From NCBI GenBank assembly GCA_017676145.1, contig GCA_017676145.1_3628.1: 64,000 nt of DNA; one strand, 5' to 3'. Positions 11,466 to 62,395 of the stretch are shown here, one piece after another (within the stretch, counting starts at the first letter, position 1; each line of letters begins with the position of its first letter). Position numbers and translations under genes: made by a program. The stretch is from a phage. Under the pieces are notes generated by a model. It made no database searches, was not told where the DNA came from, and saw nothing but the letters and a program-made list of their open reading frames with translations.

Positions 11466-11780
11466 TTACCTTTTACTATGCTCTACAAGCATGTGTAAAA
11501 TCTTTTGCACATCGGCTCTGATACCGGAGACATCTGTCCTGACATCTTGCTTAAGGTCGTTAATATCGGCCTCTAGCTTACTTAACCGGGTCTCAATAAT
11601 GGAATCAAGTCTATCTTTTGTAACCATGCTATTTTTCACTAAAATGAGGTCTTTCTCCAGCTCATCCAACCTCTTGGAAATGCCTTTCCATTTGGTGTGC
11701 CACTGGTTGAAAGCCCATACACAGATCGGGACAACGGTACCCATGCAGATACCGTACAATGCCGCCAAATCCAACTCCAC
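11466..11780 (-). CDS. membrane-anchored coiled-coil protein (104 aa)
   Basis: N-terminal hydrophobic helix (ALYGICMGTVVPICVWAF) followed by heptad-like charged region. Confidence 0.4.
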   Translation of the reverse strand: MELDLAALYGICMGTVVPICVWAFNQWHTKWKGISKRLDELEKDLILVKNSMVTKDRLDSIIETRLSKLEADINDLKQDVRTDVSGIRADVQKILHMLVEHSKR

Positions 11781-26300: not shown

Positions 26301-27124
26301 TTCCACATACCCCAACGGCCTGTTGCATCAAGCTGCAAGTACCCTGCCGTGTTTAAATCATCTCCAGCACGGATAACTGTTCTTGTTGGGTTGTTTGCCT
26401 CCAGGCGTTTAAATTCATCACGAAGTGCTATTCTTTTTGTTGTTGCTACACCGTTGGTTACTGCAATGGTATACATGGCTCCAGAGGTAGCGCCACGGAA
26501 AATACCATCAACAGTCGTAGTATCACGACGAGATACCACACCGTTCAAAAATTTTTCACCAGCTGCTTCAGAGGGGTAGTTAGTAGTTCTTCCCTCTTCA
26601 ATAACTGCAGGACCAACAAAGTTGACAAGGTGAATAACATCGCCTACAGTATGCACTGTACCAAAATCTACCCGCTGTGCAAGTGCTTTAGCATCGTTGG
26701 CTGTCTGAACCGTAACATCCATTACATCCTGGACAGACTGCCCTTCGGCTGTCATGATCATAGATGCGCCAATGGTAGACTCCAACTCCTCCCTTAAGGA
26801 CGGGTCTGTATATACCATCCATGCAGCATCAGTAATCCCACCATCAGAGTACGGTGAAGACAGTGCAGGCACAGTGTGTGGAAATTCGCCTTTCCAACGC
26901 AGGTAGAGGTCTTCCTCTTCGAAGTAGGCAAAATCCATTGGGCCGTTTAACTTACCACCTTCCTTAAAGGAGATTACATGAGAAACAGTCCCATCCACAT
27001 GGACAACATCGCCAATTTTTACACGACGGGTCAGGTCTGGTTGTTGAACAACCAGGTAATCATCCTCTGTCACTGCGGTAGTGGCAGGAAGAGATTCAAT
27101 TCTGACAACTTTAATATCAGCCAT
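23318..27124 (-). CDS. tail fibre/tailspike protein (1268 aa)
   Basis: Large ORF; N-terminal domain homologous to N-terminus of 29759..30427 product (DD[YF]LVV.Q.D.TR..KI.DVV...EGG.L...DFAY); coiled-coil terminus. Confidence 0.5.
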   Translation of the reverse strand: MADIKVVRIESLPATTAVTEDDYLVVQQPDLTRRVKIGDVVHVDGTVSHVISFKEGGKLNGPMDFAYFEEEDLYLRWKGEFPHTVPALSSPYSDGGITDAAWMVYTDPSLREELESTIGASMIMTAEGQSVQDVMDVTVQTANDAKALAQRVDFGTVHTVGDVIHLVNFVGPAVIEEGRTTNYPSEAAGEKFLNGVVSRRDTTTVDGIFRGATSGAMYTIAVTNGVATTKRIALRDEFKRLEANNPTRTVIRAGDDLNTAGYLQLDATGRWGMWNQQTASWQPLAIEQGGTGARDAAGVRINIGAFYKQRAALEANFNINNLTGNQDGIYYQPMTANATEANGYPAGSGAGHLIVWQNNANGGTGCRQEYYPFSNVDVWYLRTYQANTNQWTAWQPMVRPRNDDTFRSHIGLGSRNSPTFGHLYLSQSSADVKSASGIVNGDKYSADGVLEHGYRIYSEVRNDNKTWLTVHLHKGAKGSETHRYLGFREDGVLDCPKYMQVGDLTGQLTNWGLGEWIRSSGAERGFWGSKKAAKMVVWDGGMDESGNGTLEWGVYNNRKAKWEPLPQAAGGTGATTLADAQNLFKVPVAAGVKDFLTLPRTAGMEDGKYYPIIVRTDPYYAPTTGTDITIVTRSSSGSDPMNCATLQCHYRTGGWTDRGDSFQGVINFYQNEKAILGCVSPTRGKQEYVAFYVESRAFPVSVYTSRNVLEVFTRENDWQVGNVTNNQDGVKFCAPLASDNLSLAIKGDDVTNTRTLAEFKGTPGFYTGGSTDRHYIGTPDRMVLMSKTEMPPVEMWYNGLNYICPGSQTTRKALFSNAGFQAASEGTEDLINNTFTSKCGNGARLQGQAEFRSTPEAGQVIVRDVVGSAHRFYNFNKDGTFSAPGGFVCHTGADWNNQFGPNNPSKIMAGNVNGPEGSMVVGGLSVAFSGNYAFQMAGRLDQLYTRSIEGGNHRAWNKVIQHRGQGLGVNDLNDYKGDREGFYHQEANAQATPDRNYPCSRAGTLIVYRNYANVPESCVQEYISYLGEKFLRYGTTIGSVFTWGPWQQLGGKGITLKTAGSNLDPEFMIHTGGGTDVTNTSNMPSNTGRMYYWGNGADRKNVLEFQINDNATSASWVWHCGAKTDEAKSRYLAVNGVVECTAVSQSSDRDLKDNIEVIPNALEAIRKMKGYTYTLKENGMPHAGVIAQEVMEALPEAVGSFVKRKEVPGPTQDGIPLMTEERFYNVDYAAVTGLLVQVCREQDDRITSLEEQVKKLTEVVTELQGKLK

Positions 27125-27159
27125 TCTTTCTCCTGAAAGGGGGCAAACAGCCCCCTATG

Positions 27160-29757
27160 TTAAAGGTACAATCCACGGTATTGAGCATAAAGTCCCAGAC
27201 CGCGAAGGATTTCGCCAGAGTGATAGCCTACCGGATCAGAAACTGCCCAGCAGCCGTTTAAAACATTATCCCCGTTAATGAAGTGGTGCTTTTGCAGTAA
27301 CTTCACACAGGCTTCTACAACAATATCTATTTGAGGTATTGTCTCTGAATACCCGCAAAGACCTAGCCAGCAGCAACCTGCAAGCCATTCACCTACCACC
27401 CACATCCTGTCACCTCTGTCTTGATAAGAATATCCTCCTGAGGTGTTAAAGTCTGTAGGGAGATTTCCGGAATGAGATGACTGGAATCTGTTGAGGAACC
27501 ATGCCCATTTCTGGCAGAACAGGAACAGTCTTTCGTCAACAGGTTCTTTATGTTTCTTAAGCTCATATAGTGTGCGGCACGCAGCAACAAAGGCTCTTGA
27601 TTGGAGTTTAGAGTTATCTACCATCTCCCACCAACCAGTCAACCCTTCATTACCCCTCTGCCATACGTAGCGGGATGCAACTGGTCCTTCTGTTTTAAAT
27701 GTGTTATTATACCAAACTTGGGAGTCGTACATAAATCCAATTGTATTTGCCAATCTTTGACGATCTATGTTTTCCGCACCCATACAGTAGACTACCGGAT
27801 ATTGCATTCCGGGATAGGGCCAATTTGGCCTTTCCTCTAGAAGATAATTTTCCTTATCTATCACCTTTCCGGCAGGGAACACACCTGGAGTGTGTCTGTA
27901 TGCGCCTTGCTTGTAGTTTCTGACATAGCAATCACCAACCTTGGCGGTTGATTCTGTCTTGCTTGCCATCCATACACTAAACCAGATCAGATAAGCATCC
28001 CTATCTGCAACATAAAATTGCGGCAGCGTGTTGACGCAATACAGATCGAACAAGCCATTACCTATCTGCCTGTCGCTCAGACTGAAATCTACAGAGGTAA
28101 TTCCTTTAGGGTTGGCAAAGAAAGGTTTAATCTCATCTTCTGTGTGATGAGGTTGTGTTGGATCTAGTTTAAAATCACCTAGGGTAAGAGTTTCTGTTAT
28201 CCATTGTCCGTTAGTGGCATATAGATCAGCATACCATAACCAACGGTCTTTGTCAAGAAATTTGACCCTTACCATCTCATCATCTGATCGATAAGTTACT
28301 GAATTTAAAGAAATCTCTCTTCCAAAATTGAAAGTTACTTTGCCTCTTACTATGTTGCAACGGGTGAAGTTGTCGGAGTGGTTGTAAATGTCGGTATCAT
28401 ACTGCATACTAACACTAGCGCCACCGCTTACGGCAATGTTTTCCTCTTTTGGCAAGAGATACGGGTTACCGTCTTTACCAACCACCTCTACGAAATCAGT
28501 AACTTTGGCAACTGTCTCTGTTACTTCTGACCCTCCAAAAGGGACCCCTATCCTATACTGTTTTTTGTTATTGTTGCCATCATTAAGGATGAAATGTGGC
28601 TGGAACAGAACCCCCTCTCCTCCGAAATTCATAACAATTTCAGCATCTCTGCCTATCTTGTATGTAGTCCCTTTTTGGATTATTTCGCAAGGCTGGCGTG
28701 CGTTCATTCTAAAATTGATATACCCGTCGCTGTCCCTACTCATGACAGGAACTGTTCCTGCAACGAGACAAGTACCATCTGTGAACGGTGCCTTAATCAA
28801 CGTGGTCTTTCTAAACAACTTGTCGTAGGCATTTATATCACTGAAATTAAGCAACTTGTTGTAAGACTGTTTAAACGCGGTGTAATACTTTTCCTCGCCT
28901 GTCAAAGTGTAGAGTTGATAACAAGCGTCACACCACATTTCTTCCCCGTCCAACTCTGGGGCTTGATTGTCTGCAACCACATTTATAGGGTTTACAATTA
29001 CAGGGGATCCAGCAGGTATCACCGATCCACCCTGCTCTTGTGGCAATCTCACACAGTAGGTTACCTTGTGGCTGCCTGTAACACCCTTATCCTGCAGTTG
29101 GATTGTGCCGAACTCTGCAGACGTATGACCACTGTCGGCTATGCTACCGTTGGCCCAATAGCGGTTACCATCCCATGCTATATACCACTCAACCCACCAA
29201 CTTAATCCAGATGTTGTCCAATTTGGGTTAGCATCCGTGCCGCCGTAAACATCAGAGTCTACAGTGTTTCTTCCTAGCACACCGTTATACGCTTGAAATG
29301 CCTTGTCTAGGTATTCACCCCATGTCGGAGATCCAGCTGGGATTTTTCCTCTACCATTGGTAAAAGACACCACTACATCTTTAAACCCACCATGTGATGG
29401 GACCCCGTCTGTAGATAATGGGTAGTGGGACAATCTTTGCATTTTACTTTCTACTGCATATGCACCCAGAAGATGACTGTTGTAGGCTTCCCAGGCTTCT
29501 TTGGCCCTATCTAGATAAAAATCGCTTTTCGATGCCCTGTATGCTTCAATGTATCCCAGAATCAACACAGCCTGAGCTTCATGCATTGCCCAATCATTAT
29601 TTATCTTACTCCCTGACCAACCTGACGCTATAAGTCCATCCTGGTTTACCAGCTTGTTCTGCGTGGAGAGATTGGTAATGCCTGTGTTATTATCGAGGCA
29701 CTTCCTGTGCCCCTCAATCATCTGAAATACGTTATCAATGTTGTGTTGAATACGCAT
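27160..29757 (-). CDS. tailspike-like virion protein (865 aa)
   Basis: Large Trp/Tyr/Asn-rich ORF in fibre block; possible glycosidase-type tailspike, unverified. Confidence 0.4.
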   Translation of the reverse strand: MRIQHNIDNVFQMIEGHRKCLDNNTGITNLSTQNKLVNQDGLIASGWSGSKINNDWAMHEAQAVLILGYIEAYRASKSDFYLDRAKEAWEAYNSHLLGAYAVESKMQRLSHYPLSTDGVPSHGGFKDVVVSFTNGRGKIPAGSPTWGEYLDKAFQAYNGVLGRNTVDSDVYGGTDANPNWTTSGLSWWVEWYIAWDGNRYWANGSIADSGHTSAEFGTIQLQDKGVTGSHKVTYCVRLPQEQGGSVIPAGSPVIVNPINVVADNQAPELDGEEMWCDACYQLYTLTGEEKYYTAFKQSYNKLLNFSDINAYDKLFRKTTLIKAPFTDGTCLVAGTVPVMSRDSDGYINFRMNARQPCEIIQKGTTYKIGRDAEIVMNFGGEGVLFQPHFILNDGNNNKKQYRIGVPFGGSEVTETVAKVTDFVEVVGKDGNPYLLPKEENIAVSGGASVSMQYDTDIYNHSDNFTRCNIVRGKVTFNFGREISLNSVTYRSDDEMVRVKFLDKDRWLWYADLYATNGQWITETLTLGDFKLDPTQPHHTEDEIKPFFANPKGITSVDFSLSDRQIGNGLFDLYCVNTLPQFYVADRDAYLIWFSVWMASKTESTAKVGDCYVRNYKQGAYRHTPGVFPAGKVIDKENYLLEERPNWPYPGMQYPVVYCMGAENIDRQRLANTIGFMYDSQVWYNNTFKTEGPVASRYVWQRGNEGLTGWWEMVDNSKLQSRAFVAACRTLYELKKHKEPVDERLFLFCQKWAWFLNRFQSSHSGNLPTDFNTSGGYSYQDRGDRMWVVGEWLAGCCWLGLCGYSETIPQIDIVVEACVKLLQKHHFINGDNVLNGCWAVSDPVGYHSGEILRGLGLYAQYRGLYL

Positions 29758-49560: not shown

Positions 49561-49986
49561 ACCCTCATCGAAGCAAACCATGGTGTACTCAAGCCCTTGA
49601 TGGTTAAGCTTATCTTGGACATACTCCATGTGGCAGTATTTTACAACGGCCCCTTTTTTGCTCCTGTCCCACTTGCCAGTGCTCGGATCAAACCGTGGAA
49701 AAATAAACTTATGATCCTTCTCTCTGAACTTTGGTTTAATGTTTTCAGGCAGATCACTGTAAATAGCTACTGCTTTAGGCCATAGACCTCCTTCACCCTC
49801 CAGCTGCGGGGTTGTTCTTCGGAACATAACCACAGAGCTGTGTGGGTCATCAATAATTTTAAGTGGCATTAGCTGCAAGAGGAACGACTTGCCAGAACCG
49901 GCTGCACCTCCGATCACCAAAATATCTGCATCGTTCTCAAGGATCATCTTCTGCTTTTCAGAACACGGTCCGTAAATCTTAGACAT
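49561..49986 (-). CDS. terminase large subunit, exon 1 (ATPase domain)
   Basis: Walker A GGAAGSGKS and Walker B MVCFDEG; start ATG overlaps the o-spanin stop (TAATG). Confidence 0.75.
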
Positions 49987-50273
49987 TAACCTCTCTCCTT
50001 TGGAAACAGTGTTCTTATATAGTCTTGCAAAATGATCAATTTAGCTCTATCATTACTACAAGACAGGTTATTATCCCTCATAATGCCAGAATTCACCGCA
50101 TCTGGCGCACCTTTCTTCAAAGGGATAGCTTTAGCAGGTGGTTTCATAGCACCCTCGGGAGGTTTAACAATCAACCTTCCTACATCCGGAGGGTCAATCT
50201 TATATTCTTTTTCGACACTTGTCGCACATCCGCACAGCAGTAAGCAAGCAACTAACAATACGGTGGCTCTCAT
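49986..50273 (-). CDS. o-spanin (Rz1-like outer-membrane lipoprotein)
   Basis: Signal peptide with lipobox-like LLLCGC, Pro-rich mature region, 95 aa; 4-nt overlap with upstream i-spanin gene. Confidence 0.6.
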   Translation of the reverse strand: MRATVLLVACLLLCGCATSVEKEYKIDPPDVGRLIVKPPEGAMKPPAKAIPLKKGAPDAVNSGIMRDNNLSCSNDRAKLIILQDYIRTLFPKERG

Positions 50274-50668
50274 CTACCCTCCTGATTAATGCTCTCGTTA
50301 TAGATATCTATAAGCTGGTCAGGTAGTGTTGACTTCTTACCTTCAGGTGATTGGAGGTAGATAATCTGCTTTTCTTTACCTGCCTTCTCAGCCATATTTA
50401 ATTTATCCTGTAAGTCAGAAAGAGATTTTTCAAGGTTTTTAACCTCCTCTGCGTGGCCCATTTTAATTTTGTCGGCCTGCTTTTGTTGTTGGTCAAGGAT
50501 CCGTTCCCACTTTAACTCTGTTGCTGACACACCTTCCTGATAAGCATCATTGAGCTTAGAGTTAAACCAATACACGGCCCCAAGATAAGTCATGCCTATA
50601 GCCGCTGCAAAAACTAAACCTTTTATGATCCCTCTGTATTTACTCATCAATGTTAAAACTGAAATCAT
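50270..50668 (-). CDS. i-spanin (Rz-like)
   Basis: N-terminal transmembrane helix (GLVFAAAIGMTYLGAVYWF) then coiled-coil charged region; followed by the lipoprotein gene. Confidence 0.6.
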   Translation of the reverse strand: MISVLTLMSKYRGIIKGLVFAAAIGMTYLGAVYWFNSKLNDAYQEGVSATELKWERILDQQQKQADKIKMGHAEEVKNLEKSLSDLQDKLNMAEKAGKEKQIIYLQSPEGKKSTLPDQLIDIYNESINQEGR

Positions 50669-60730: not shown

Positions 60731-60871
60731 TTTAGGTATGTTTAGTAGATAACGGTAGCCAATTGAATGAGTGTTTTCAATTGGCACCTACATATGCCCT
60801 GATGTATGCACTGTGCAACCTAGCCACGTGCTGATCAGGGCTCGTTATGAGTGAACTGGAGAGTATGAAAA

Positions 60872-61342
60872 ATGAAACTTGATAAAAATGTTCAACGAAA
60901 AGCTTTCTTGGATATGATCGCATATTCAGAAGGTACAGATAATGGTAGACAACCTACCAAGGATCGGGGCTACGATGTCATAGTCGGGGGCAAGCTGTTT
61001 AGCGATTACAGTAAGCATCCAGGTGTTTACGTTAAACTAAATGCTAAACTTACCTCCTCTGCTGCTGGGCGTTACCAGATTCTGGAGAAGTTTGCTAAAC
61101 ACTATATGAAACAGTTAGGATTACCAGATTTTGGCCCTACCAGTCAGGACAAGATTGCGTTGCAACTGATCCGTGAGTGTAAGGCGCTCGATGATATTGA
61201 TGAAGGTCGTATTCACCAGGCCATCCATCTTTGCAGATCCCGATGGGCAAGCCTTCCAGGTGCAGGGTACGGTCAGCACGAACAGAAGATCGAAAAGTTG
61301 ATCGAGGTGTTTAAAAAGTCAGGCGGCGTTGTCCTGGATTAA
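60872..61342 (+). CDS. endolysin, lambda R-type lysozyme (lytic transglycosylase)
   Basis: QRKAFLDMIAYSEGTDNGRQ...GYDVIVGG...AGRYQ...WASLPGAGYGQ is near-collinear with lambda R as recalled. Confidence 0.85.
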   Translation: MKLDKNVQRKAFLDMIAYSEGTDNGRQPTKDRGYDVIVGGKLFSDYSKHPGVYVKLNAKLTSSAAGRYQILEKFAKHYMKQLGLPDFGPTSQDKIALQLIRECKALDDIDEGRIHQAIHLCRSRWASLPGAGYGQHEQKIEKLIEVFKKSGGVVLD

Positions 61343-61405
61343 TCATTGACATAACCATACGGATGTGGTATTGTTGCCTCATAGAATGTTCAGGAGGGTT
61401 TAACC

Positions 61406-61612
61406 ATGAAAGATTTTCTGTTGGCAATTTTGTTCATGGCAGCATGCCTTGTCTGTGGTGTCGTGTTTGCAGGTGAGACAGCGTACCTTGTAGATGTATA
61501 TCGGGACAATGGTAAACGTATTTGCCTTTATGAGACAAGCCAAGGTGAGCTATATGAGCTTGTGAAACAAGGTGAGGCAGGTTCCTGCCCTCGCACCCAT
61601 TTCTTTGAATGA
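61406..61612 (+). CDS. small secreted/membrane protein (68 aa), possible lipoprotein or lysis accessory protein
   Basis: N-terminal hydrophobic segment LLAILFMAACLVCGVVFAG with a possible lipobox-like Cys; directly downstream of the endolysin gene. Confidence 0.4.
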   Translation: MKDFLLAILFMAACLVCGVVFAGETAYLVDVYRDNGKRICLYETSQGELYELVKQGEAGSCPRTHFFE

Positions 61613-61621
61613 GGAGGATAC

Positions 61622-62086
61622 GTGGAAGACGGACGTTTAATGAAGTCTGAACGCAGGCTTATTGTGCAACTGATCCCAGAAACAGCTTGGTATAATAACC
61701 TCCGAAACGCTGTGAAGAAGAGTGAGTGGGATAAGATCCGTAAGAAGTGCTACAGAGAAGCCAACTACACTTGCGAGGTGTGTGGTGGCAAAGGTAGCAA
61801 ACACCCTGTGGAGTGTCATGAACTTTACACCTTCGAAGAGGGGGTGATCCGGCTTGTCGGACTGATAGCCCTGTGCCCAGATTGTCACACATCGGTGCAT
61901 CCTGGGTTAGCAAATATCCGTGGGAAATATGCTCAGGCAGTTAATCAGTTGGCTAAGGTAAATAAGATCACTAAGGGCATGGCTGAAGCTTATTACCGAG
62001 ACTGCTTTGCAGAGTGGCGGGAGCTTAGTAAAGTTCCGGAATGGAAGACCGACTTTTCGTGGATAGAGGGTTACCTTGATGGCTAA
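61622..62086 (+). CDS. HNH-type zinc-finger nuclease-like protein (free-standing)
   Basis: CEVCGG...HPVECHELY...LCPDCH arrangement (CxxC...H...CxxCH) resembles HNH nucleases; GTG start with GAGGAGGA RBS. Confidence 0.45.
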   Translation: MEDGRLMKSERRLIVQLIPETAWYNNLRNAVKKSEWDKIRKKCYREANYTCEVCGGKGSKHPVECHELYTFEEGVIRLVGLIALCPDCHTSVHPGLANIRGKYAQAVNQLAKVNKITKGMAEAYYRDCFAEWRELSKVPEWKTDFSWIEGYLDG

Positions 62087-62369
62087 GAAACCTGTAAAAG
62101 AAAAATTTGATAAGACAGCTTTTGTATTCGATACACCTCTGGACGACATTATTAGAGGTATGCAATCATTGTACCGGAAGGCTGAATCTGATCAGTTGTC
62201 TGAATCAGAACTTTACTGGCTTGGTTGGTGGGAGCTAAACCTTCCTAAAGCTGAAAGTTCTTGTCTGAGAACTGTTAAAACGTGCGCCCAAGAAAACGCT
62301 GCACTTGGAATCTACCACAAAAGGAAAAGATCAACAAAAAGCTCTCCAAGGAAGACTAAAAAGTCTTGA
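62076..62369 (+). CDS. hypothetical protein (97 aa), basic C-terminus
   Basis: Overlapping co-oriented ORF. Confidence 0.4.
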   Translation: MMAKKPVKEKFDKTAFVFDTPLDDIIRGMQSLYRKAESDQLSESELYWLGWWELNLPKAESSCLRTVKTCAQENAALGIYHKRKRSTKSSPRKTKKS

Positions 62370-62395
62370 CAAAAGTGTTATTAATCTGATATTAT
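62366..62395 (+). promoter_or_regulatory. near-consensus sigma70 promoter (TTGACA-18-TATTAT)
   Basis: TTGACAaaagtgttattaatctgaTATTAT about 35 nt upstream of the ATG at 62429 with AGGAG RBS. Confidence 0.6.

What the first reader, a model, noticed from the sequence alone, without database searches (positions are those of the whole stretch)
61406..61612. Small signal-peptide/lipoprotein-like gene immediately after the endolysin
This 68-aa protein has an N-terminal hydrophobic segment with a Cys in a lipobox-like context and a short soluble C-terminus. By position it could be a holin or antiholin, or a lytic-conversion/superinfection-exclusion lipoprotein of the kind that blocks a phage receptor.
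Basis: inference. Interest (0 to 1): 0.35.

Follow-up and report, generated by a model that had tools for sequence, protein, structure and literature searches.

The report
Small secreted periplasmic phage protein
The 68-codon gene after the lysozyme of this rV5-like E. coli phage is real and conserved, but it most likely encodes a tiny protein exported into the periplasm after removal of an ordinary signal peptide, not a lipoprotein or a holin, and its function is still unknown.

Summary
The window is a Vequintavirus (rV5/FV3-like coliphage). ORF 61406-61612 is rV5 ORF90, annotated "putative membrane protein", and belongs to phrog_4641 (function unknown). It is a real gene. It has a strong RBS, synonymous changes far outnumber replacements, and homologues occur in 224 phage records of the Vequintavirinae and allied myophages.

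The N-terminal hydrophobic segment is confirmed. The lipobox reading fails: no family member (0/44) has a strict lipobox, and Cys14/Cys17 are absent from close relatives. All 44 members do have a (-3,-1) signal-peptidase-I site exactly where a hypervariable N-terminus (18-43 aa) meets a conserved domain of about 45 aa with two invariant cysteines. AlphaFold models that domain confidently (pLDDT 90.5) as a four-stranded beta mini-domain with no significant structural or sequence relative.

Adjacency to the lysozyme is specific to the genus Vequintavirus. In 12 loci of other lineages the homologue lies in the same ligase-to-exonuclease module with no recognisable lysis gene nearby, often behind its own sigma-70 promoter. 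The spanins are elsewhere in the window, and the proposed holin (rV5 gp129) lies outside it.

Best reading: a Sec-exported, disulfide-bonded periplasmic mini-protein, possibly a Spackle/Sim-like protector of the infected cell. That function is inferred only. Interest is low to moderate.

The parts
61346..61374 (+). Sigma-70-type promoter TTGACA-17 nt-TATTGT with TG extended -10 (= rV5 annotated promoter P90), 4 nt after the lysozyme stop codon
   Evidence: Consensus scan gives 10/12 matches with TG. It is annotated as P90 in rV5 and conserved there as TTGACA-17-TATTTT. Comparable promoters lie directly upstream of homologues in several other lineages, twice just after a terminator. Scan matches in this region are no more frequent than in shuffles (4 found against 4.7 expected), so the support comes from conservation, not from the scan.
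61392..61397 (+). Shine-Dalgarno AGGAGG, 8 nt upstream of the ATG
   Evidence: Read directly from the sequence. GGAG-type RBSs also precede the homologues in other lineages.
61406..61612 (+). CDS of the 68-aa precursor (rV5 ORF90 homologue; phrog_4641)
61406..61471 (+). Predicted Sec signal peptide, residues 1-22 (MKDFLLAILFMAACLVCGVVFA). It has Lys2 in the n-region, a hydrophobic core at residues 4-17, and a c-region G-V-V-F-A with Val at -3 and Ala at -1
   Evidence: This segment is hypervariable in sequence and length (18-43 aa) across 44 homologues. All of them nevertheless end in a (-3,-1) site: -1 is A in 38, S in 3, G in 3; -3 is A in 29, S in 7, V in 5, T in 2, C in 1. AlphaFold models residues 2-16 as a helix. 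Cleavage itself is inferred, not shown.
61472..61609 (+). Mature domain, residues 23-68 (GETAYLVDVYRDNGKRICLYETSQGELYELVKQGEAGSCPRTHFFE; 46 aa, 5.27 kDa, pI 4.9). It carries the invariant T25, L28, C40, Y42 and C61
   Evidence: Conservation. AlphaFold of this domain alone gives mean pLDDT 90.5 and pTM 0.68, with four beta strands at residues 2-12, 15-22, 27-33 and 42-45 of the mature chain. Properties. A C40-C61 disulfide is inferred from the two invariant Cys in an exported protein.
60872..61342 (+). Context: lambda-R-type lysozyme (rV5 gp89) without signal or SAR sequence. It is a separate gene upstream of the promoter
   Evidence: phrog_90 E 6e-55; rV5 annotation; no hydrophobic segment found.
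61622..62086 (+). Context: HNH-endonuclease-like gene, probably co-transcribed. Its RBS GAGGAGGA overlaps the ORF90 stop codon
   Evidence: phrog_5200 E 2.4e-72. It is 43-51% identical and syntenic in 11 loci of other lineages. The next strong promoter is at 62366-62395.

Best explanation
The gene encodes a secretory pre-protein.

Proposed mechanism:
- The 22-residue N-terminus is a Sec-type signal peptide, removed by signal peptidase I after Val-Phe-Ala22.
- This releases a 46-residue, 5.3-kDa acidic beta-sheet mini-protein into the periplasm.
- Its two invariant cysteines (C40, C61) are probably joined by DsbA.
- The gene has its own sigma-70 promoter and heads a small operon with an HNH-like gene, inside the ligase-to-exonuclease DNA-metabolism module. 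It is therefore probably made by host RNA polymerase from early in infection, independently of the lysozyme gene beside it.

Evidence status:
- Shown by computation: the gene is real and under purifying selection; the leader is variable and the mature domain conserved; the (-3,-1) site is universal in the family and a lipobox absent; the fold is predicted with confidence.
- Inferred: export, cleavage, the disulfide and the timing. I put about 0.75 on the localisation and processing.
- Function is inference by analogy only. As a small soluble periplasmic binder conserved across rV5-like phages of many enterobacterial hosts, it most likely protects or conditions the envelope of the infected cell. 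The leading guess (about 0.3) is superinfection exclusion or resistance to lysis from without, in the manner of T4 Spackle or P1 Sim, by binding a conserved periplasmic target or the cell-puncturing or muralytic device of an incoming phage.
- A second, less likely guess (about 0.1) is restraint of the family's own secreted SleB-like hydrolase.
For: - Gene reality: phrog_4641 E 2.6e-27; 124 and 224 phage records; syn/nonsyn 8/1 and 10/0.
- Signal peptide: one basic residue, then a 19-residue hydrophobic stretch. In alignments of 32 and 44 homologues the N-terminus is unalignable and 18-43 aa long, while the C-terminal ~45 aa are conserved with invariant T25, L28, C40, Y42 and C61. All 44 have small residues at -1 and -3 at that boundary (AHA|S, ASA|S, AKA|S, VFA|G and so on). 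One GenBank record (Cronobacter phage PBES 02) already carries a sig_peptide feature.
- No lipobox.
- Fold: pLDDT 90.5 for the mature domain, four strands.
- Own promoter.
- Not tied to lysis genes.
- Found only on phage contigs of about 130-155 kb: none in 185,579 representative bacterial and archaeal genomes; the IMG/VR hits whose contigs are long enough to judge are 136-153 kb.
- Not reported as a virion protein in rV5 proteomics (Table S3).
Against: - No dedicated predictor (SignalP, LipoP) and no experiment was available, so cleavage is inferred from conservation only.
- In the Vequintavirus version the hydrophobic core is long (19 residues, very hydrophobic). That could slow cleavage or leave the protein membrane-anchored.
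- The script that scored the (-3,-1) rule picked the best site within 3 residues of the alignment boundary, which flatters the count.
- sigma-70-like promoters are spread all over the rV5 genome (33 of them, PMC3606486), so 'early' is not proven, and no transcriptome was found.
- The functional proposal has no direct support. There is no sequence or fold similarity to Spackle, RI, Sim or Llp, no conserved partner gene next to it, and no phenotype data in the literature searched.
Confidence: 0.7

Rival explanations
1. Outer-membrane lipoprotein. Lsp would cleave before Cys14 and the acylated protein would block a receptor (as T5 Llp or Cor do) or act as an Rz1-like o-spanin.
For: MKDFLLAILFMAA-C resembles a short lipoprotein leader and fits a loose PROSITE-type lipobox. 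The size (68 aa) and the position beside a lysozyme recall Rz1 and Llp.
Against: - The strict lipobox fails (Met at -3).
- Cys14 is absent from P0006-P0010 and from every other lineage. Strict lipobox 0/44; loose matches 5/44 at non-homologous positions.
- Cleavage at Cys14 would leave a hydrophobic CLVCGVVFAG on the mature protein.
- The mature domain is not proline-rich (1 Pro).
- The real o-spanin with its lipobox (LLLCGC) and the i-spanin are at 49986-50668 (PMC6658697, PMC6139136).
Confidence: 0.05
2. Lysis-timing protein: either the missing holin of rV5-like phages, or an antiholin of the T4 RI type whose periplasmic domain binds the holin.
For: - It lies directly after the lysozyme in Vequintavirus.
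- The holin of rV5-like phages is not firmly identified (PMC6658697).
- RI is likewise a small protein with an N-terminal hydrophobic segment and a periplasmic domain.
Against: - Its only hydrophobic segment is hypervariable and ends in a conserved peptidase site, so no transmembrane domain is expected in the mature protein.
- There is no charged cytoplasmic tail. The conserved part is a hydrophilic beta domain, whereas RI is helical (general knowledge); no RI or T chain appears among the 50 best Foldseek PDB matches listed for each model.
- The leader is strongly hydrophobic with about 26% Ala/Gly, unlike SAR domains (read from the sequence).
- The gene has its own promoter.
- Homologues in 12 other loci are not near any recognisable lysin or holin.
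- The holin candidates proposed in the literature are two-TMD proteins with almost no periplasmic surface (rV5 gp129, PMC3606486; CB7_82, PMC7344957).
Confidence: 0.08
3. Uncleaved signal-anchor (type II) inner-membrane protein, which displays the same beta mini-domain in the periplasm while tethered to the membrane.
For: The hydrophobic stretch in this phage is 19 residues with mean hydropathy 2.86, long enough to span the membrane. rV5 annotators called it 'contains transmembrane domain'. Several homologues have leaders of 35-43 aa.
Against: A small-x-small site at the end of the hydrophobic segment is conserved in 44/44 members although the rest of the leader is not conserved. Close relatives have short, classical leaders (MKTLWAVFISAMMFASGSAWS|GD).
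Confidence: 0.12
4. The same exported protein, but its target is the phage's own secreted SleB-like cell-wall hydrolase, which it would hold in check or chaperone in the periplasm until lysis.
For: Vequintavirinae, including the closest relative SYGMH1, encode a SleB-like hydrolase with a classical cleavable signal peptide (CB7_83...APAPALA|KEN). It is reported to be toxic when expressed (PMC7344957). Both families are conserved across the subfamily.
Against: There is no linkage: the hydrolase gene lies tens of kb away and outside this window. SleB-like hydrolases occur in 1331 phage records, the ORF90 family in only 224. No interaction evidence exists.
Confidence: 0.1

Closest known systems
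phrog_4641 / rV5 ORF90 (ABI79156.1, 'putative membrane protein')
   Same: It is this family: full-length match with E 2.6e-27, 98.5% identical to rV5 ORF90, same position after gp89.
   Different: Nothing differs. The family has no assigned function, so membership explains nothing about mechanism.
T4 Spackle (Sp, gp61.3), periplasmic inhibitor of the gp5 tail lysozyme
   Same: A small protein of a virulent myophage with a cleavable Sec signal peptide that acts in the periplasm. Its gene is embedded among early DNA-metabolism genes (general knowledge of T4).
   Different: Spackle is alpha-helical and its mature form is larger. There is no meaningful sequence match (PF25676 hit by 1 of 44 members at E 0.013, a sub-threshold chance-level hit) and no fold match among the 50 best Foldseek PDB hits listed. 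The target and phenotype of ORF90 are unknown.
T4 RI antiholin
   Same: A small protein with an N-terminal hydrophobic segment and a periplasmic effector domain.
   Different: RI uses an uncleaved SAR domain and a helical fold, and binds the large periplasmic domain of holin T (general knowledge). Here the leader is strongly hydrophobic with a conserved peptidase site, the domain is all-beta, and no T-like holin is known in rV5-like phages.
T5 Llp and lambdoid Cor receptor-blocking lipoproteins
   Same: Small, exported, Cys-containing phage proteins that are not part of the virion and are used for superinfection exclusion.
   Different: These are acylated lipoproteins with an obligatory lipobox, which is absent here (0/44 strict). 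Their genes sit beside the receptor-binding protein gene, unlike ORF90.
Rz1-type o-spanin
   Same: About 60-70 aa, an N-terminal export signal, often encoded next to the endolysin.
   Different: An o-spanin needs a lipobox, is proline-rich and is paired with an i-spanin. This phage's spanin pair is at 49986-50668 (PMC6139136, PMC6658697).
P1 Sim (periplasmic superinfection-exclusion protein)
   Same: A signal-peptide-processed periplasmic phage protein thought to block entry after adsorption (general knowledge).
   Different: Sim is several times larger and comes from a temperate phage. No similarity to it surfaced in the family or structure searches.

Membership tests
Sec/signal-peptidase-I secretory pre-protein | Basic n-region, hydrophobic h-region, and a c-region with small uncharged residues at -1 and -3 | tested here: met
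   Lys2; hydrophobic stretch at 4-22; V-F-A before Gly23. The rule holds in 44/44 homologues at the boundary between variable and conserved sequence. Heuristic only; SignalP was not available.
Sec/signal-peptidase-I secretory pre-protein | Actual export and cleavage | not testable with these tools
   Needs fractionation, mass spectrometry or PhoA fusions.
Bacterial lipoprotein (Lsp/Lgt substrate; Llp, Cor, Rz1 kinds) | Lipobox [LVI][ASTVI][GAS]C with an invariant +1 Cys | tested here: not met
   M-A-A-C fails at -3. Strict lipobox in 0/44; the Cys is not conserved.
Holin | At least one transmembrane domain retained in the functional protein, usually with a charged cytoplasmic C-terminus | tested here: not met
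   The only hydrophobic segment is the hypervariable leader with a peptidase site. The C-terminal 46 aa are a hydrophilic beta domain whose net charge ranges from -6 to +5 across the family.
Holin / antiholin | Conserved genetic linkage to endolysin or other lysis genes | tested here: not met
   Adjacent to a lysozyme only in Vequintavirus. No lysozyme within 7 kb in 12 other loci, and the neighbours scanned are phrogs of unknown function, a MazG-like pyrophosphatase, a membrane protein and similar.
T4 RI-type antiholin | SAR (weakly hydrophobic, Gly/Ala-rich, uncleaved) N-terminal domain plus a helical periplasmic domain that binds a holin | tested here: not met
   Leader mean hydropathy 2.86 with about 26% Ala/Gly (sequence); all-beta model. 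Holin binding is not testable here.
T4 Spackle family (PF25676) | Sequence or fold homology to Spackle | tested here: not met
   No Pfam hit for the window protein. One of 44 members at E 0.013, below threshold. No Spackle chain among the 50 best Foldseek PDB hits listed.
o-spanin | Lipoprotein paired with (embedded in, overlapping or adjacent to) an i-spanin gene | tested here: not met
   No lipobox. The flanking genes are a lysozyme and an HNH-like gene. The spanin pair is at 49986-50668.
phrog_4641 | Significant full-length profile match | tested here: met
   E 2.6e-27, residues 1-68 on profile positions 1-68.

The most novel reading that the evidence does not exclude
The family (phrog_4641) is a previously unrecognised class of ~5-kDa disulfide-locked periplasmic effectors of rV5-like phages. 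It would have a fold of its own and act as a Spackle-like or Sim-like shield against secondary infection or lysis from without. Alternatively it would be a periplasmic brake on the phage's secreted SleB-like hydrolase. Either way it would be a new molecular solution to a known problem, in a phage group widely used for therapy and biocontrol.
Probability: 0.3. Interest if true: 0.5.

Novelty: new member of a known kind. Interest (0 to 1): 0.25.

Why it matters
rV5-like phages are common in therapeutic and biocontrol cocktails, and their lysis and exclusion functions are poorly mapped. This result removes a tempting but wrong holin or lipoprotein annotation from the gene next to the lysozyme. 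It also defines a compact, confidently folded, exported mini-protein family conserved across phages of at least nine enterobacterial genera. If the protein mediates superinfection exclusion or controls a muralytic enzyme, that would affect how such phages behave in mixtures and would give a small, easily testable periplasmic binder. If it has no such role, it remains one more conserved hypothetical phage protein.

Tried and rejected
- Pfam, NCBIfam and PDB sequence-profile searches gave nothing meaningful.
- Foldseek of the full-length and mature models against PDB gave only generic small beta-barrel/SH3-like matches at E >= 0.07. BFVD returned only the protein itself plus uncharacterised proteins.
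- A profile search of 1.84 billion representative proteins found only 24 proteins at E <= 1e-3. Nearly all were 65-91 aa; the exceptions were two long proteins matched only over short stretches and a truncated fragment. No characterised relative appeared.
- The search for related loci with the 44-sequence alignment failed because no stretch was conserved enough. A narrower alignment worked for viral contigs and found nothing in genome representatives.
- The contigs carrying the distant members P0042 and P0052 were too short to give any context, and that of P0050 (2.9 kb) gave very little.
- I looked for a conserved neighbouring partner gene and found none. The immediate neighbours vary between lineages. 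The frequent upstream neighbour, phrog_3576, has no known function and no lysin domain.
- I checked whether rV5 gp128, next to the proposed holin gp129, is the SleB-like hydrolase. It is not.
- I checked for a second lysozyme copy or a SleB-like gene in the window and found none.
- Literature: no transcriptome or gene-level screen of a Vequintavirus was found. The CRISPRi-ART genome-wide screens covered T4, T5, SUSP1 and PTXU04, not EdH4. Papers on rV5, LL12, CB7, P7_Pc and KP12 say nothing about this gene.
- A cationic membrane-disrupting peptide was rejected because the net charge of the mature domain ranges from -6 to +5 across the family.

Full report
**Identity of the window.** The stretch 60800-62100 is 97.7% identical to Escherichia phage vB_EcoM_SYGMH1 and 93% identical to phage rV5. 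The window is therefore a Vequintavirus, a myophage of about 137 kb. In rV5 the gene in question is ORF90 (ABI79156.1), annotated "putative membrane protein; contains transmembrane domain". It lies between gp89 (lysozyme) and gp91 (HNH endonuclease), and a sigma-70 promoter "P90" is annotated in the gap. Other records call it "hypothetical protein". One calls it "lysozyme" and one "tail fibers protein", both clearly annotation slips.

**The observation.**
- The ORF runs from 61406 to 61612 (+): ATG start, TGA stop, 68 codons. AGGAGG lies 8 nt upstream of the ATG.
- The 63-nt gap after the lysozyme stop codon holds TTGACA-17-TATTGT with a TG extension, at 61346-61374.
- The protein matches phrog_4641 (unknown function) over its full length, E 2.6e-27. 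It has no Pfam or NCBIfam family.
- Against rV5 the gene shows 8 synonymous differences and 1 replacement. Between rV5 and SYGMH1 the count is 10 and 0.
- The gene is therefore real and under purifying selection.
- Residues 4-22 are very hydrophobic (mean hydropathy 2.86). The remaining residues are hydrophilic and acidic.

**Lipobox or ordinary signal peptide.** Homologues settle this.
- Close metagenomic relatives at 61-75% identity read MKTLWAVFISAMMFASGSAWS|GDTAYLVD... and have no N-terminal cysteine at all.
- Serratia Vequintavirinae read ...FSMPSAHA|SQTMSLVD and ...AAGKASA|SQTMSLVD.
- I collected 44 members from two database searches and a profile search of 1.84 billion representative proteins. 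The profile search returned only 24 proteins at E <= 1e-3, nearly all 65-91 aa.
- The N-terminal 18-43 residues cannot be aligned. The C-terminal ~45 residues are conserved, with invariant T25, L28, C40, Y42 and C61.
- At the junction every one of the 44 has a (-3,-1) site: -1 is Ala in 38, Ser in 3 and Gly in 3; -3 is Ala in 29, Ser in 7, Val in 5, Thr in 2 and Cys in 1.
- None has a strict lipobox. Five fit a loose pattern, at non-homologous positions.
- This pattern of a hypervariable leader, a conserved peptidase-I site and a conserved mature domain is what a cleaved Sec signal peptide leaves. The lipoprotein reading is rejected.
- Caveat: this is a heuristic, and the script chose the best site within 3 residues of the boundary. 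A dedicated predictor or an experiment is still needed.

**Structure.**
- AlphaFold on the full-length protein with 32 sequences gave pLDDT 80.7, with a leader helix at residues 2-16 followed by four strands.
- The mature domain alone with 35 sequences gave pLDDT 90.5 and pTM 0.68. Strands lie at residues 2-12, 15-22, 27-33 and 42-45.
- Foldseek found no PDB match at E <= 0.001 for either model. The best matches were generic small beta-barrels (SH3-like domain of ribosomal protein L2, Mop/TOBE domains) at E >= 0.07.
- BFVD returned the protein itself and a few uncharacterised phage proteins.
- A PDB sequence-profile search found nothing.
- Two invariant cysteines in an exported domain suggest a disulfide. 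This is an inference; I could not inspect the coordinates.

**Distribution and context.**
- With the Serratia homologue as query, tblastn finds the family in 224 phage records. By the first word of the record name these are phages of Escherichia, Klebsiella, Cronobacter, Salmonella, Pectobacterium, Enterobacter, Erwinia, Serratia, Proteus and a few others. The records listed include rV5-like, 4MG, CR3/CR8/CR9, phiTE/CB7, KB57 and Mydo phages.
- In IMG/VR every hit whose contig is long enough to judge lies on a 136-153 kb contig; three hits lie on fragments of 5-10 kb and one on a 43-kb contig. No hit was found in 185,579 representative bacterial and archaeal genomes. The family thus looks like a core-like gene of the Vequintavirinae and their allies.
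- In 12 loci from other lineages the homologue keeps its place in a conserved module: ligase, MazG-like gene, dsDNA-binding protein, ORF90 family, NADAR, HNH-like gene, exonuclease. None of these loci has a lambda-R-like lysozyme within 7 kb.
- The immediate neighbours vary, and those scanned are not recognisable lysis genes.
- Adjacency to the endolysin is therefore a peculiarity of the genus Vequintavirus, and it is the only argument for a lysis role.
- A strong sigma-70-type promoter lies directly upstream in the window, in rV5 and in four other lineages (L006, L010, L013, L018), with a weaker match in L008. In L006 and L013 it sits just after a terminator. The gene often starts its own transcription unit.

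**Lysis genes of this phage group.**
- The spanin pair is in the window at 50270-50668 (i-spanin) and 49986-50273 (o-spanin, with a genuine lipobox), next to the terminase (PMC6139136, PMC6658697, PMC7344957).
- The rV5 authors proposed gp129 as the holin: 78 aa, two TMDs, basic C-terminus (PMC3606486). It lies outside this window.
- The LL12 authors considered the holin unidentified (PMC6658697).
- Certrevirus authors proposed a two-TMD protein next to a SleB-like hydrolase (PMC7344957).
- ORF90 has no transmembrane domain left after the predicted cleavage and no cytoplasmic tail. It does not fit a holin.
- An RI-like antiholin is not excluded. However, the leader is not SAR-like, the fold is beta rather than helical, and the candidate holins have almost no periplasmic surface.

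**Most likely mechanism.** Export and processing: Sec export, cleavage after Ala22, and a disulfide-stabilised 5.3-kDa soluble periplasmic protein, probably made from early in infection (about 0.75).

For function I can only argue by analogy. Small exported proteins of virulent phages that are encoded among early DNA-metabolism genes, such as T4 Spackle and Imm, protect the infected cell against secondary infection and lysis from without. P1 Sim is a processed periplasmic exclusion protein.

The strong conservation of the mature domain across phages of many host genera points to a conserved target. That target would be either an envelope component shared by Enterobacterales or a conserved phage device. 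I give about 0.3 to a role in exclusion or envelope protection.

I give about 0.1 to control of the family's own signal-peptide-bearing SleB-like hydrolase (PMC7344957). I give about 0.08 to lysis timing. The rest goes to something not yet imagined.

**Novelty and interest.** The gene has been annotated since 2006 and the family is catalogued (phrog_4641), but it is uncharacterised. What is new here:
- the corrected topology (secreted, not lipoprotein or holin);
- the confident mini-fold without relatives;
- the finding that linkage to the lysozyme is genus-specific.

This is a new member of a known kind, small exported phage accessory proteins. Interest is low to moderate.

Noticed in passing
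window 49986-50668 (- strand): Spanin pair next to the terminase region: i-spanin 50270-50668 (132 aa, N-terminal TMD) and o-spanin 49986-50273 (95 aa, MRATVLLVACLLLCGC with lipobox). They overlap by 4 nt and lie far from the lysozyme.
   Followed up: partly
window 11466-11780 (- strand): 104-aa protein with one N-terminal TMD and a coiled-coil-like C-terminus, inside the tail-fibre gene cluster (= rV5 gp31 'membrane protein, 1 TMD'). CB7 has three membrane-protein genes at the equivalent place. Their role is unknown.
   Followed up: no
window 61622-62086 (+): The 'HNH endonuclease' downstream of ORF90 is 43-51% identical and syntenic in 11 loci of other lineages, in nearly all of them just upstream of the exonuclease gene. 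It behaves as a conserved core gene rather than a mobile homing endonuclease. Its RBS overlaps the ORF90 stop codon.
   Followed up: partly
GenBank records MG0656xx; MH533020.1: Nineteen records named 'Campylobacter phage' are about 92% identical to E. coli rV5-like phages over this region. 'Acinetobacter phage ABPH49' is 100% identical to Serratia phage Kashira over the homologue. The host labels look doubtful.
   Followed up: no
proteins P0004 and P0011 (metagenome assemblies): Two database proteins are frameshifted versions of ORF90. One is a 90-aa form that starts in the overlapping frame at the position of window 61363 and lacks the leader. The other is a 52-aa form that leaves the frame after residue 33. 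They are probably assembly errors or pseudogenes.
   Followed up: no
outside the window; SYGMH1 26789-27217; L020 32641-33171 (CB7_83): Vequintavirinae carry, besides the cytoplasmic lambda-R-type lysozyme, a SleB-like cell-wall hydrolase with a classical cleavable signal peptide (...APAPALA|KEN). It is followed in Certrevirus by a two-TMD protein. Which enzyme is the true endolysin, and how a secreted hydrolase is restrained, is open.
   Followed up: partly
L009, L012, L014, L016, L017, immediately upstream of the ORF90 homologue: A 157-172-aa protein of phrog_3576 (unknown function, no Pfam domain) lies directly upstream of the ORF90 homologue in five loci of other lineages. Its stop overlaps the homologue's start, or a 67-68-aa ORF intervenes. 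It is absent from Vequintavirus, where the lysozyme occupies that place.
   Followed up: partly
window 62366-62395 (+): Near-consensus sigma-70 promoter TTGACA-18-TATTAT with TG (11/12), = rV5 P93. It marks the end of the short ORF90/HNH/ORF92 unit.
   Followed up: no
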